Origin: a virus
UHGV virus genome: UHGV-0299458
DNA length: 29,348 nucleotides
Direction: 5' to 3' (one strand)
Below, piece after piece: positions 18,085 through 21,940 of the stretch (the stretch's first letter is position 1; the number at the start of each line of letters is the position of its first letter). The notes under the pieces are model-generated. The model was not told the origin of the DNA and searched no databases. It was given only the letters and a program-made list of their open reading frames with translations. The position numbers were made by a program, and so were the translations under genes.

Positions 18085-18161
18085 TGGCGCGCTGTACTGG
18101 ATTCGAACCAGTGACCGATTGCTTAGAAGGCAATTGCTCTGTCCGGCTGAGCTAACAACGC
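18085..18161 (-). tRNA. argO: tRNA-Arg (anticodon UCU)
   Basis: Reverse complement folds as a cloverleaf: GCGTTGT-TA-GCTC..GAGC-A-ATTGC-CTTCTAA-GCAAT-CGGTC-ACTGG-TTCGAAT-CCAGT-ACAGCGC-G-CCA. Symbol assigned by analogy to the ileZ-argN-argO cluster of Stx phages. Confidence 0.85.
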
Positions 18162-18174
18162 ATGATGCAGATAA

Positions 18175-18251
18175 TGGACCGCCATCGGGGACTTGAACCC
18201 CGCGCAGCCAGCTTCGAAGGCTGGCGCTCTTTCCTGATGAGCTAATGGCGG
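18175..18251 (-). tRNA. argN: tRNA-Arg (anticodon UCG)
   Basis: Reverse complement: CCGCCAT-TA-GCTC..GAGC-G-CCAGC-CTTCGAA-GCTGG-CTGCG-CGGGG-TTCAAGT-CCCCG-ATGGCGG-T-CCA (77 nt); symbol by analogy. Confidence 0.8.
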
Positions 18252-18258
18252 TATGTGA

Positions 18259-18334
18259 TGGTGGCCCTTGCTGGATTTGAACCAGCGACCTGGCGATTAT
18301 GAGTCGCTCGCTCTCACCACTGAGCTAAAGGGCC
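18259..18334 (-). tRNA. ileZ: tRNA with CAU anticodon, most like tRNA-Ile2 (lysidine) rather than Met
   Basis: Reverse complement GGCCCTTTAGCTCAGTGGTGAGAGCGAGCGACTCATAATCGCCAGGTCGCTGGTTCAAATCCAGCAAGGGCCACCA; near-identical in pattern to E. coli ileX as recalled. Confidence 0.85.
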
Positions 18335-20736: not shown

Positions 20737-21009
20737 TTACCTCCAGATCCGTTGCTGGAAAGTGCGGGACGGACGTGGTGGGCGTTCGGAATAAGGCAGC
20801 CTGACAGAGATTATCCAGTGCCGATAGTCGAGACTGAGAGCTTTCTTAACCTCGAACCCGCGCCTGCGGTAAGAATGAATCAGCCATTCGGCCTGTTCTT
20901 CAGTACATGGTGGGTGTTGGTACCAGTCGGTTTTAAATGCGTGTGAACGCCGCTCATGCCGGATGGCAAGGTCGGTATCAGAATTGTGAAATTTGGTTTT
21001 GTGCGCCAT
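20737..21009 (-). CDS. Hypothetical nin-region protein (90 aa)
   Basis: ORF translationally coupled to the downstream HNH gene; family not recognised. Confidence 0.5.
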   Translation of the reverse strand: MAHKTKFHNSDTDLAIRHERRSHAFKTDWYQHPPCTEEQAEWLIHSYRRRGFEVKKALSLDYRHWIISVRLPYSERPPRPSRTFQQRIWR

Positions 21010-21176
21010 CTGTTTTCTCTGCTGGCGCAGCAGGTGTCAGGTGTTCAGGCTGACGTGCGAATTGTAAACCAGAATGCCAGGAAAAAACAAAACCCGCCGA
21101 AGCGGGTTAAGTGCGGGTGCGTTGAGGATGCCTGACACATCAGAGGTGGCGAGGGATTTCTCCCCCGCCAGGTCTC

Positions 21177-21332
21177 TTACTCCTCAGGTTCGTAAGCTGT
21201 GAAGACAGCGACCTCCGTCTGGCCGGTTCGGATTCGTACCTCGCAGAGGTCTTTCCTCGTTACCAGTGCCGTCACTATGACGGTTAAACAGATGACGATC
21301 AGGGCGATTAACATCGCCTTTTGCTGCTTCAT
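21177..21332 (-). CDS. hok: Hok/Gef-family type I toxin (51 aa)
   Basis: Not in the ORF track (under 60 aa). Translation MKQQKAMLIALIVICLTVIVTALVTRKDLCEVRIRTGQTEVAVFTAYEPEE fits the Hok pattern (TM helix, then conserved ...TRK.LCE.R.R.G..EVA.F.AYE...). A short upstream ORF ends overlapping the hok ATG, mok-like. Confidence 0.8.
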   Translation of the reverse strand: MKQQKAMLIALIVICLTVIVTALVTRKDLCEVRIRTGQTEVAVFTAYEPEE

Positions 21333-21590
21333 AGCCTGCTTCTCCTTGACCTTTCGGTCCGTAAGAGGCTAATCTCTATGTGTCGCATAGATATGGCCTC
21401 AGATTAATGTTAAGCGTCTTGCAGGACGCGTAATGTTAACTGGGGCTTTTCTCTATCTGCCTTTTGGTGTTCATGCCTGAGACAGATAGCCTCAAGCACC
21501 CGCAGTCATTCTACTTAACTAAGATTTCCCCGCAAACCGTTTTTGTCCGGCACAGTAAATATCCAACTAAACCAATGGCGTTCGCTGTAT

Positions 21591-21770
21591 TTACCGCCAG
21601 TATTCAATGCACATGACCGCCATGAACACCCCTAAAAAAAGGGCATTTATATGTCCAAACATTAATATCAAAACATCAACTTTTTCCATATACCTTGCTG
21701 TGAAGATGATGGGCATACATGATGCGAACAACCAGAACGCAACAAACAAAAACTGCAATGCGTTTTTCAT
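21591..21770 (-). CDS. Small two-helix membrane protein (59 aa), AT-rich cargo gene
   Basis: ATG 21768-21770 with AGGGGGAA Shine-Dalgarno; MKNALQFLFVAFWLFASCMPIIFTARYMEKVDVLILMFGHINALFLGVFMAVMCIEYWR; AT-rich upstream region. Confidence 0.45.
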   Translation of the reverse strand: MKNALQFLFVAFWLFASCMPIIFTARYMEKVDVLILMFGHINALFLGVFMAVMCIEYWR

Positions 21771-21940
21771 TATTCCCCCTACAATCAATGTGCAATAACA
21801 TTTAAACACACCTCAATTTGGCCGGACATATAAATATCTAAACCAGAAAAAATCACTTACATAGCGTTACAAACTCTTTAGTCTAAATATTCATCGCAAA
21901 ATATTCCCCATACTTATCAGCCCGTTCTGCGCCAGGTAGC

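What the first reader, a model, noticed from the sequence alone, without database searches (positions are those of the whole stretch)
21177..21450. Hok-family type I toxin gene missed by the ORF track, with mok-like upstream ORF and probable sok antisense region
A 51-aa ORF with a clear Hok signature lies on the minus strand. A short ORF ending in an overlap with the hok ATG and a structured leader with inverted repeats (around 21370..21400) fit the hok/mok/sok architecture. Hok loci in prophages act in post-segregational killing or phage exclusion.
Basis: partly seen in the sequence, partly recalled or inferred. Interest (0 to 1): 0.45.

Follow-up and report, generated by a model that had tools for sequence, protein, structure and literature searches.

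The report
Known prophage hok/sok toxin-antitoxin locus
This is a complete copy of the well-known hokD-type hok/mok/sok RNA-controlled toxin-antitoxin module carried by an E. coli lambda-like prophage; it is real but ordinary, and public genomes already annotate the toxin gene.

Summary
The 51-aa ORF at 21177..21332 (-) matches Pfam Hok/Gef over the full profile (E=1.2e-23) and is identical to E. coli HokD. The leader at 21330..21501 (-) matches Rfam RF01794 over the full model (106.7 bits; gathering score 59). A 19-codon ATG ORF (21388..21329) ends in an ATGA overlap with the hok start.

The 521-nt locus is 100% identical in many E. coli chromosomes, where RefSeq annotates hokD. [quoted passage not shown] K-12 hokD keeps only the stretch from Shine-Dalgarno to terminator. 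This copy has every R1-type RNA element:
- tac, ucb, sokT hairpin, mok SD, dcb, hok SD and fbi
- the terminator
- an antisense Sok region, about 21382..21450 (+)

The only departure from the textbook layout is the short mok, which stops at the hok ATG. It equals the part of R1 mok shown to be sufficient, and the spacing varies (56, 57 or 58 nt) among close relatives.

A side observation: the Sok 5' tail and its target are about 27-fold more diverse than hok synonymous sites.

Verdict: already known, low interest.

The parts
21508..21536 (-). Inferred hok promoter: -10 TAGAAT at 21513-21508, a weak -35 (TTTGCG/TTGCGG) at about 21536-21530, and the transcription start at G21501.
   Evidence: Read directly from the sequence. 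The -10 lies 6 nt upstream of the first position of the Rfam model. It is not detected by the consensus scan. Homology between alleles breaks down upstream of about 21520.
21085..21501 (-). Full-length hok mRNA. The 5' end is inferred from the Rfam model start and the 3' end from the intrinsic terminator.
   Evidence: Rfam RF01794 begins at 21501. The terminator is at 21108-21091 followed by a T-run. The 417-nt fold has z=-8.75, and its 5' and 3' ends pair with each other.
21490..21501 (-). tac element (GGGUGCUUGAGG), the 5'-terminal box. It pairs in turn with the adjacent metastable partner, with fbi, or with ucb.
   Evidence: Folds. The box is invariant in 66 alleles.
21442..21448 (-). ucb (AAGCCCC), the upstream complementary box. 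It sequesters the mok SD in the full-length mRNA and pairs with tac in the truncated mRNA.
   Evidence: Rfam consensus structure. The minimum-free-energy (MFE) folds of the full-length and truncated RNAs show the two pairings. Helix 1 is 99.8% paired.
21401..21441 (-). sokT hairpin, which is the complement of the Sok terminator stem-loop. It carries a 16-nt insertion relative to the Rfam model.
   Evidence: Helix 4 has 4 pairs with changes on both sides.
21397..21400 (-). mok Shine-Dalgarno (GAGG).
   Evidence: Invariant, pi=0.000 over 65 alleles. It pairs with ucb in the full-length fold and with dcb in the truncated fold.
21329..21388 (-). mok-like leader ORF: ATG, 19 codons (MRHIEISLLRTERSRRSRL), with a TGA that overlaps the hok ATG (ATGA).
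   Evidence: The ATG is conserved within a hypervariable patch. The same arrangement occurs in 11 of 80 viral contigs, and independently in hokC-type loci.
21365..21370 (-). dcb (AGCCUC), the downstream complementary box that pairs with the mok SD in the truncated mRNA.
   Evidence: Helix 5 is 100% paired.
21342..21347 (-). hok Shine-Dalgarno (AAGGAG). K-12 hokD homology starts here.
   Evidence: The GGAG bases have P(unpaired) of 0.04-0.09 in the full-length ensemble.
21177..21332 (-). hok (hokD-type) toxin CDS, 51 aa, coordinates including the stop codon.
   Evidence: Pfam PF01848 E=1.2e-23. phrog_251 E=2.8e-33. RefSeq annotates it as WP_000813254.1, 'type I toxin-antitoxin system toxin HokD'.
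21191..21194 (-). TACG motif at Tyr47 (the A is at 21193). This is the TadA A-to-I editing site reported for the identical K-12 hokD mRNA (Tyr to Cys).
   Evidence: Sequence. The CDS is identical to K-12 hokD. Editing of hokD at about 6% is reported in PMC5630033 and PMC12214031. Editing was not tested for this locus.
21147..21170 (-). Stable 3' UTR stem-loop, the presumed protective 3' end of the processed (truncated) hok mRNA.
   Evidence: A 10-bp hairpin appears in all folds. The role is assigned by analogy with R1 (PMC9841398).
21115..21127 (-). fbi (CCUCAACGCACCC), the fold-back inhibition box complementary to tac.
   Evidence: The full-length MFE pairs it with nt 1-12, and that pairing is favoured by 12.4 kcal/mol over tac/ucb. 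A box was predicted at the same distance in 30 of 32 loci. hokB and an R1-like locus show changes on both sides of the pairing.
21081..21108 (-). Intrinsic terminator of hok mRNA (AACCCGCTTCGGCGGGTT followed by a T-run).
21346..21375 (+). Inferred Sok promoter: -35 TTGACC at 21346-21351, an 18-nt spacer, and -10 TAATCT at 21370-21375.
   Evidence: Read from the sequence. It lies 6 nt upstream of the position that aligns with the annotated 5' end of 933W sokW. It is below the threshold of the consensus scan. The sokW promoter was validated by mutation in Sp5 (PMC8621323).
21382..21450 (+). Sok antisense RNA, about 69 nt: a 13-nt single-stranded 5' tail (21382-21394), a long stem-loop, and a U-tract.
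   Evidence: Coordinates transferred from the 933W sokW annotation through alignment A2. Fold dG is -31.9 kcal/mol with z=-5.74.

Best explanation
This is an intact hokD-type hok/mok/sok type I toxin-antitoxin cassette. It is carried as a moron in the nin-like region of an E. coli lambdoid prophage, between the replication genes and Q.

Proposed mechanism. The steps are inferred by homology to plasmid R1 hok/sok and to 933W/Sp5 hokW-sokW unless marked as shown.

1. A weak promoter makes a hok mRNA of about 417 nt. While it is nascent, its 5' tac box is held in a metastable hairpin.
2. In the full-length RNA, tac pairs with the 3' fbi box. The ucb box then sequesters the mok Shine-Dalgarno, so the mRNA is inert. 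These pairings are shown as the thermodynamically favoured folds of this sequence.
3. Slow 3' trimming back to the stable 3' UTR hairpin removes fbi. Tac then pairs with ucb, which exposes the mok translation-initiation region and the Sok target.
4. The short-lived antisense Sok RNA is transcribed from the opposite strand. It nucleates through its 13-nt 5' tail on the region around the mok AUG. This blocks mok translation and triggers duplex cleavage.
5. When Sok decays (transcription shut-off, prophage induction or loss), ribosomes translate the 19-codon mok-like ORF through the structured hok initiation region. They terminate at the UGA that overlaps the hok AUG, which allows Hok synthesis by translational coupling.
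6. Hok is a 51-aa inner-membrane peptide that depolarises the membrane. TadA editing of Tyr47 to Cys may tune its toxicity.

The most likely biological role is as shown for hokW-sokW: a kill or lysis-assist module released when Sok transcription falls on prophage induction. Prophage addiction or abortive infection are alternative or additional roles.
For: Toxin:
- Full-length Pfam Hok/Gef match.
- Protein identical to K-12 HokD and 92% identical to HokW.

Leader RNA:
- Full-model Rfam RF01794 hit, 106.7 bits against a gathering score of 59.
- Across 66 distinct alleles, 92.9% of cells are paired, against 32-51% when the partners are slid. Seven pairs carry compensatory changes.

Folding switch, computed on this sequence:
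- the nascent RNA forms the metastable hairpin;
- the leader alone, and the mRNA truncated at nt 360, form tac/ucb plus mokSD/dcb;
- the full-length RNA forms tac/fbi, which is 12.4 kcal/mol better than forced tac/ucb.
- An fbi box was predicted 45-56 nt after the hok stop in 30 of 32 related loci, with changes on both sides in hokB and an R1-like locus.

Sok:
- Base-for-base alignment to the annotated 933W sokW.
- A 5' tail, hairpin and U-tract fold with z=-5.7.
- hokW-sokW was shown experimentally to be a toxin/antitoxin pair with a mutable sokW promoter (PMC8621323).

mok:
- The conserved ATG and GAGG sit inside a hypervariable patch.
- In R1, mok translation is needed only up to the hok start, which is 19 codons. 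Translation beyond that is dispensable (PMC9841398).

Conservation and context:
- The 521-nt locus is 100% identical in many E. coli chromosomes. Related hok loci matched in 4956 of 5426 complete genomes.
- The surrounding prophage looks complete.
Against: - There is no experimental data for this exact allele.
- The consensus promoter scan found neither the hok nor the Sok promoter at its threshold. The inferred Sok -10 (TAATCT) matches only 3 of 6 consensus positions, with an 18-nt spacer.
- The mRNA truncated at nt 369 has an MFE that keeps the metastable 5' hairpin, not tac/ucb. Forcing tac/ucb costs 4.8 kcal/mol there, so the predicted switch depends on the exact processing site.
- The NCBIfam Hok HMMs score below their curated cut-offs (48.5 against 73).
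- Chromosomal hok loci tested earlier did not mediate post-segregational killing, according to Pedersen and Gerdes 1999 as summarised in the preprint read.
- The short mok is a minority arrangement: 11 of 80 contigs.
Confidence: 0.85

Rival explanations
1. The locus is a decayed, non-functional chromosomal hok remnant. The -1 spacing change that truncates mok, or the weak promoters, have silenced Hok expression, as has been argued for the K-12 chromosomal hok loci.
For: - K-12 hokA, hokC and hokE are disrupted by insertion sequences, and K-12 hokD lacks its leader (PMC12214031).
- The promoter scan was negative.
- The short mok is the minority form.
Against: - Every RNA element is intact and matches the covariance model over its full length.
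- No insertion sequence or rearrangement is present.
- The same short mok recurs independently in hokC-type leaders of E. ruysiae and E. whittamii.
- The ORF covers exactly the 19 codons that R1 genetics show to be sufficient.
- The locus is 100% conserved in many genomes.
Confidence: 0.1
2. The 19-aa upstream ORF is not a functional mok. Hok is translated directly from its own strong Shine-Dalgarno (AAGGAG), and Sok acts only by promoting mRNA degradation.
For: - The hok SD is a good match to consensus.
- The Mok peptide sequence is not conserved between alleles.
- In K-12, hokD has no mok at all.
Against: - The ATG and its GAGG SD are kept across the 66 aligned alleles (one row is register-shifted at the ATG), while the bases around them have pi of about 0.3.
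- In every allele with an intact leader, the ORF from that ATG reads at least to the hok start, whatever its frame.
- The hok SD is paired in the predicted full-length ensemble.
- Mutations of the R1 mok start codon abolish Hok toxicity (PMC9841398).
Confidence: 0.07
3. The molecular mechanism is the same, but the biological role is different. The cassette would serve mainly as prophage addiction (post-segregational killing on excision or loss) or as abortive-infection defence against other phages, and not as a lysis helper on induction.
For: - R1 hok/sok mediates post-segregational killing and excludes phage T4 (reviewed in PMC10305079).
- hok genes are about four times more frequent in prophages than random placement predicts (preprint 10.1101/2025.08.07.668861).
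Against: - The only prophage hok locus tested, hokW-sokW at about 91% DNA identity, increased phage release about two-fold after mitomycin C. It was not reported to act in maintenance (PMC8621323).
- The tested chromosomal hok loci did not show post-segregational killing.
- The preprint found no enrichment of hok next to defence systems.
Confidence: 0.35

Closest known systems
hokW / mokW / sokW of Stx2 phage 933W and Sakai prophage 5 (AF125520; PMC8621323)
   Same: - It is a lambdoid-prophage hok cassette with about 91% DNA identity over 443 nt.
- The Hok proteins are 51 aa long and 92% identical.
- The leader architecture, the long sokT hairpin, the Sok position and length, tac and fbi are the same.
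   Different: - The spacing from the mok ATG to the hok ATG is 56 nt here and 57 nt in 933W. mokW is therefore in frame with hokW (a 70-aa extended Hok), whereas this mok stops at the hok ATG.
- The sequence of the Sok 5' tail and its target differs.
- The position in the phage genome differs. 933W carries its copy near a genome end, while this one lies between the replication genes and DUF968/RusA/Q.
E. coli K-12 hokD (relF) in the Qin cryptic prophage
   Same: - The DNA matches from the hok Shine-Dalgarno to the terminator, with an identical CDS and two substitutions in the 3' UTR.
- The downstream neighbours are the same: a rem-like ORF and DUF968/ydfU.
- The TACG editing site is the same.
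   Different: K-12 has relBE fused directly upstream, so it lacks the hok promoter, tac, ucb, sokT, mok and the Sok gene. The window carries the complete regulatory leader and is the unrearranged form.
hok/mok/sok (parB) of plasmid R1, the paradigm
   Same: - The toxin belongs to the same family.
- It has the same set of RNA elements (tac, ucb, mok SD, dcb, fbi, a metastable 5' hairpin) and a cis-antisense Sok with a 5' tail and one hairpin (PMC9841398).
- The portion of mok upstream of hok is 19 codons in both.
   Different: - Hok identity is only 39%.
- R1 mok is 70 aa, in the +1 frame, and overlaps nearly all of hok (58-nt spacing). Here it terminates at the hok ATG.
- The sokT hairpin here is 16 nt longer than the Rfam consensus.
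- R1 is a plasmid locus and this one is in a prophage.
E. coli K-12 hokC (gef) / mokC / sokC
   Same: - Hok identity is 82%.
- The tac box is the same, and the fbi box is of the same type in intact hokC-type loci of other Escherichia.
- Some hokC-type loci in other Escherichia species have the same 56-nt short mok.
   Different: - hokC-type leaders lack the 18-nt distal part of the sokT hairpin.
- K-12 mokC is in frame with hokC.
- The K-12 copy has IS186 inserted just downstream of the CDS.

Membership tests
Hok/Gef toxin family (Pfam PF01848) | Profile match above the curated gathering score, over the full domain. | tested here: met
   82.9 bits against a cut-off of 22, E=1.2e-23, profile positions 1-42 of 42. 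phrog_251 E=2.8e-33. The NCBIfam Hok HMMs hit only below their cut-offs: NF007279 at 48.5 against 73, and the HokA equivalog at 40.2 against 89.
Hok/Gef toxin family (Pfam PF01848) | A peptide of about 50 aa with an N-terminal hydrophobic helix, a conserved Cys-x-Thr in that helix, and L-C/Y-E in the C-terminal part. | tested here: met
   In the alignment with HokA, HokB, HokC, HokE and R1 Hok, C15, T17, L29, E31, E40 and A46 are invariant.
Hok/Gef toxin family (Pfam PF01848) | Membrane-depolarising toxicity on expression. | not testable with these tools
   The protein is identical to K-12 HokD. The 92%-identical HokW is toxic when induced (PMC8621323).
hok/mok/sok type I toxin-antitoxin locus (R1 paradigm) | Structured hok mRNA leader with the tac/ucb stem, the sokT hairpin and the mok SD/dcb stem. 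| tested here: met
   RF01794 matches over the full model at 106.7 bits against 59. The MFE of the leader, and of the mRNA truncated at nt 360, reproduces these helices. Across 66 alleles 92.9% of cells are paired, and 7 pairs show compensatory change.
hok/mok/sok type I toxin-antitoxin locus (R1 paradigm) | Long-range 5'-3' fold-back (tac/fbi) that locks the full-length mRNA. | tested here: met
   The full-length MFE pairs nt 1-12 with 21127-21115. That pairing is 12.4 kcal/mol better than tac/ucb. A box was predicted at the same distance in 30 of 32 loci, with changes on both sides in hokB and an R1-like locus.
hok/mok/sok type I toxin-antitoxin locus (R1 paradigm) | Cis-encoded antisense Sok RNA with its own promoter, a single-stranded 5' tail, and a terminator hairpin. 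| tested here: inconclusive
   The position and sequence align with the annotated 933W sokW. The fold shows a tail, a hairpin and a U-tract with z=-5.7. However, the promoter (TTGACC, 18 nt, TAATCT) falls below the consensus-scan threshold, and no transcript data are available.
hok/mok/sok type I toxin-antitoxin locus (R1 paradigm) | An upstream mok ORF whose translation reaches the hok initiation region. | tested here: met
   An ATG ORF with a GAGG SD covers 19 codons and stops at the ATGA overlap. The ATG and SD are conserved within a hypervariable patch.
hok/mok/sok type I toxin-antitoxin locus (R1 paradigm) | A long mok (about 70 aa) in the +1 frame that overlaps most of hok. | tested here: not met
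   The +1 frame is open across hok but has no ATG, GTG or TTG start. The conserved ATG is 56 nt, not 58 nt, upstream of the hok ATG. R1 genetics show this portion of mok is dispensable, and K-12 mokC and 933W mokW also lack it. It is therefore not truly a defining feature.
hok/mok/sok type I toxin-antitoxin locus (R1 paradigm) | 3' processing of hok mRNA, RNase III cleavage of the Sok duplex, and post-segregational killing. | not testable with these tools
   These need Northern blots or RACE and genetic assays.

The most novel reading that the evidence does not exclude
The 13-15 nt Sok 5' tail and its target around the mok AUG (window 21382-21396) may be a hotspot of diversifying change that makes co-resident prophage hok/sok copies mutually orthogonal.

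- Among alleles encoding an identical Hok, this patch has pi=0.32, against 0.012 at hok third-codon positions and 0.05 in the rest of Sok.
- Copies in the same genome differ at 6-8 of 18 tail columns but at only 0-1 of 54 columns in the Sok body.
- Predicted tail duplexes drop from about -27 kcal/mol for cognate pairs to about -11 kcal/mol for non-cognate pairs.

The indels that generate this variation also flip the mok frame between three states: in frame with hok, +1 overlapping, or stopping at the hok ATG. On this reading the short mok seen here is a by-product of selection on Sok specificity.
Probability: 0.35. Interest if true: 0.4.

Novelty: already known. Interest (0 to 1): 0.12.

Why it matters
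For genome annotation, this is a routine small-gene and antisense-RNA locus. ORF tracks with a length cut-off skip it, and PGAP annotates only the toxin CDS.

It is a useful reference copy. It shows what the rearranged K-12 hokD looked like before relBE replaced its leader.

It is also a natural example of a minimal mok that ends exactly at the hok start, which agrees with R1 mutagenesis.

The one point that could matter more broadly is the hypervariable Sok-tail patch. If it sets antisense specificity, it would explain how E. coli tolerates up to 10 near-identical hok cassettes without cross-neutralisation.

Tried and rejected
- The consensus sigma-70 scan found no promoter in 20900-21800. 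Both promoters are therefore positional inferences.
- The NCBIfam HMMs hit only below their cut-offs.
- A six-member Hok alignment was too divergent for the search for related loci. A three-member alignment was used instead.
- K-12 hokA, hokC and hokE could not test the tac/fbi pairing, because an insertion sequence cuts away one side of each locus.
- My first fuzzy motif missed the R1-type 5' ends (L145, L146).
- Truncating the mRNA at nt 369 gave an MFE with the metastable 5' hairpin, not tac/ucb. Truncating at nt 360 gave the expected active fold. The exact processing site therefore cannot be inferred from thermodynamics alone.
- I tested whether the hypervariable patch is simply compensatory covariation in the hairpin around the mok AUG. 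It is only partly so: that helix is 76.5% paired, with 1 of 6 pairs showing changes on both sides.
- The comparative paper 'The hok mRNA family' and Pedersen and Gerdes 1999 are not in the searchable library. I cannot say whether the variation in mok spacing has been described there.
- The 59-aa hydrophobic ORF upstream of the hok promoter was checked against Pfam, NCBIfam, PHROGs and phage genomes with no informative result.
Full report
OBSERVATION

The minus strand carries an ATG-started 51-aa ORF at 21177..21332: MKQQKAMLIALIVICLTVIVTALVTRKDLCEVRIRTGQTEVAVFTAYEPEE.
- It matches Pfam PF01848 (Hok/Gef) over the whole 42-position profile, at E=1.2e-23 and 82.9 bits against a gathering score of 22.
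- It matches phage family phrog_251, 'MokW-like host killing', at 2.8e-33.
- The NCBIfam Hok HMMs hit only below their curated cut-offs.

Upstream there is an ATG ORF of 19 codons at 21388..21329. Its TGA overlaps the hok ATG as ATGA.

The arms at 21372-21380 and 21386-21394 are 89% complementary, and they lie inside a GAGGC/GCCUC stem.

The Rfam family RF01794 ('sok') matches 21501..21330 on the minus strand over all 157 model positions, at 106.7 bits against a gathering score of 59 and E=1.4e-23. The model consensus starts GGGUGCUUGAGG and ends at the hok AUG. It therefore describes the hok-sense leader, which contains the complement of Sok.

WHAT IT IS

The 521-nt locus (21040-21560) is 100% identical in many complete E. 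coli chromosomes, including ST131 EC958 and JJ1886 and ETEC H10407. RefSeq annotates the CDS there as 'type I toxin-antitoxin system toxin HokD'. Related hok loci matched this query in 4956 of 5426 complete genomes, with a median of 2 and a maximum of 10 places per genome.

The first 25 kb of the window are 100% identical to a lambdoid prophage in, for example, NZ_CP087377. The gene order there is:
- tail, head, terminase and lysis genes
- tRNAs, Q antiterminator, RusA, DUF968 and a rem-like ORF
- hokD
- small nin-like ORFs, replication genes, YdaT, Cro and CI

PGAP annotates neither mok nor sok in that record.

K-12 hokD (relF) in the Qin prophage has the same downstream neighbours (rem, ydfU). 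It aligns with the window only from the hok Shine-Dalgarno (about 21347) to the terminator (about 21085). Upstream of that point K-12 has relE. The window therefore holds the unrearranged hokD locus. The K-12 copy is the one described in the literature as inactivated by rearrangement (PMC12214031).

CLOSEST CHARACTERISED RELATIVE

Phage 933W (AF125520) is 90.8% identical over 443 nt and carries deposited mokW, hokW and sokW features. The same locus in Sakai prophage 5 has been tested experimentally (PMC8621323):
- HokW is toxic.
- sokW is a 71-nt RNA with its own promoter, and it neutralises HokW.
- Neutralisation depends partly on RNase III and Hfq.
- Mitomycin C lowers sokW and raises HokW.
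- Deleting the locus halves phage release.

I transferred the sokW coordinates through alignment A2. This places Sok at window 21382..21450 on the + strand. That RNA folds as a 13-nt free 5' tail, a long hairpin and a U-tract (dG=-31.9 kcal/mol, z=-5.74).

Six nt upstream of the inferred start lies TAATCT (21370-21375). TTGACC lies 18 nt further upstream (21346-21351). This promoter is inferred from position. The consensus scan did not call it.

RNA ARCHITECTURE AND MECHANISM

Every element of the R1 model, as summarised in PMC9841398, can be placed on the window:

| Element | Window coordinates |
|---|---|
| tac | 21501-21490 |
| ucb | 21448-21442 |
| sokT hairpin | 21441-21401 |
| mok SD (GAGG) | 21400-21397 |
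| mok AUG | 21388 |
| dcb | 21370-21365 |
| hok SD | 21347-21342 |
| Stable 3' UTR hairpin | 21170-21147 |
| fbi | 21127-21115 |
| Terminator | 21108-21081 |

Thermodynamic folding of this sequence reproduces the published pathway:
- Nascent nt 1-45 form the metastable tac hairpin.
- The leader alone, and the mRNA truncated at nt 360, have an MFE with tac/ucb, the sokT hairpin and the mokSD/dcb stem.
- The full-length 417-nt RNA has an MFE (z=-8.75) in which tac pairs with fbi and ucb pairs with the mok SD. This is 12.4 kcal/mol better than forced tac/ucb.
- One caveat: truncation at nt 369 still favours the metastable hairpin, by 4.8 kcal/mol.

Comparative support comes from two analyses.
- Across 66 distinct hokD- and hokC-type leaders, 92.9% of cells form standard pairs, against 32-51% when the partners are slid. 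Seven pairs carry changes on both sides.
- A predicted fbi box lies 45-56 nt after the hok stop in 30 of 32 loci.
- hokB (GGGTGCCTGAGA / TCTCATGGCACCC) and an R1-like plasmid locus (GGCGCTTGAGGCT / AGCCGCAAGCGCC) show changes on both sides of the pairing.

The pairings are shown. The processing, Sok binding, RNase III cleavage and translational coupling are inferred by homology.

THE MOK-LIKE ORF

In R1, mok is 70 aa, in the +1 frame, and overlaps hok. Here the conserved ATG is 56 nt upstream of the hok ATG, so the ORF stops at the ATGA overlap after 19 codons. The +1 frame across hok is open but has no start codon.

Close relatives differ by small indels:

| Spacing | Frame relationship | Where seen |
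|---|---|---|
| 58 nt | Classic long mok, +1 frame | 'Rac' record MN652886, R1, hokB, Kluyvera |
| 57 nt | In frame with hok | 933W, Evi, K-12 mokC |
| 56 nt | Short, stops at the hok ATG | This window and others below |

Among 80 IMG/VR contigs that encode an identical Hok, 66 are in frame, 11 have the window's arrangement, and 3 lack the leader.

In a more diverse set of 39 loci, 19 are in frame, 11 are classic, 4 are short and 5 have none. The short form arose separately in hokC-type leaders of E. ruysiae and E. whittamii.

R1 mutagenesis shows that mok must be translated up to the hok start, which is 19 codons. Translation beyond that point is dispensable (PMC9841398). The ORF here is therefore a natural minimal mok. 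This is a variation of detail, not a new mechanism.

OTHER LAYERS

The TACG at Tyr47 (21194-21191) is the TadA A-to-I editing motif. The identical K-12 hokD mRNA is edited at about 6%, which recodes Tyr to the Cys that other Hok proteins encode in DNA (PMC5630033, PMC12214031). Editing was not tested for this locus.

SIDE OBSERVATION

Among 65 alleles that encode the same Hok, nucleotide diversity peaks in the stretch between the mok SD and dcb.
- The target of the Sok 5' tail (21396-21382) has pi=0.32.
- hok third-codon positions have pi=0.012, and the mok SD has pi=0.000. The rest of Sok has pi=0.05 among 53 alleles.
- Co-resident copies in one genome differ at 6-8 of 18 tail columns but at 0-1 of 54 columns in the Sok body.
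- Predicted tail duplexes fall from about -27 kcal/mol for cognate pairs to about -11 kcal/mol for non-cognate pairs.
- Compensatory change in the local hairpin explains only part of this (helix 6).

The pattern suggests selection for Sok specificity between co-resident cassettes. The papers I could search report only a lack of cross-talk between R1 and the chromosomal Sok RNAs.

There are two caveats. The loci were selected for an identical Hok protein. Synonymous sites in hok may also be constrained by RNA structure.

VERDICT

The locus is an intact member of a thoroughly studied family, it is already annotated as hokD in RefSeq, and it is 91% identical to an experimentally characterised prophage locus. 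Novelty: already known. Interest: low.

Noticed in passing
window 21376-21396 (and alignment A5 columns 106-127): There is a hypervariable patch around the mok AUG, which corresponds to the Sok 5' tail and its target. Its pi is 0.32, against 0.012 at hok third-codon positions. Co-resident copies differ here but hardly at all in the rest of Sok. This may be an antisense-specificity (orthogonality) determinant.
   Followed up: partly
L003 (933W) 1659-1871; L087 (K-12 mokC) 452-661; L004 (Rac) 1138-1344; L006-L085; L091-L147: The spacing from the mok ATG to the hok ATG is 56, 57 or 58 nt among loci more than 90% identical, which gives three frame classes. The annotated mokW and K-12 mokC are in frame with hok, so they are N-terminally extended Hok proteins and not overlapping +1 ORFs.
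   Followed up: yes
window 21591-21770 (-): An unannotated 59-aa, very hydrophobic ORF (MKNALQFLFVAFWLF...) has a GGGGGA box 6 nt upstream. It lies directly upstream of the hok promoter, in a stretch that RefSeq leaves unannotated. It has no Pfam, NCBIfam or PHROG match. Only 3 phage records hold it, all at 95% identity or more, so its coding status is unresolved.
   Followed up: partly
window 20956-21135 (+): PGAP annotates a 59-aa 'hypothetical protein' (WP_001112736.1, phrog_2947; called 'mobile element protein' in some phage records). It is antisense to the hok fbi box, the terminator and the start of the rem-like ORF. It is probably an over-call that rides on the conserved hok 3' UTR.
   Followed up: no
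window 21330-21501 (-): Rfam RF01794 is named 'sok antitoxin', but its consensus is the hok-sense leader, running from the mRNA 5' end to the hok AUG. Hits therefore fall on the toxin strand. The window has a 16-nt insertion in the sokT hairpin relative to the model, and hokC-type leaders lack that distal stem.
   Followed up: yes
window 17199-17388 (-), 16838-17173 (+), 18088-18334 (-): The STnc100 sRNA (RF02076, 132 bits) lies next to an iraM anti-adapter gene. Three prophage tRNA genes (Ile, Arg, Arg) lie downstream of the Q antiterminator.
   Followed up: no
L100, L110, L116, L143: Contigs labelled as a Veillonella parvula MAG, Acinetobacter idrijaensis, Xanthomonas pisi and a 'Candidatus Scatousia' MAG carry E. 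coli-type hokD at 96-100% protein identity. Some of these contigs are only 275-553 nt long. This looks like Escherichia contamination or mis-binning in those assemblies.
   Followed up: no
L145 (NZ_CP141206.1) 484-609; L146 511-609: In some plasmid records PGAP calls R1-type Hok from an internal start, giving products of 41 and 32 aa in place of 52 aa.
   Followed up: no
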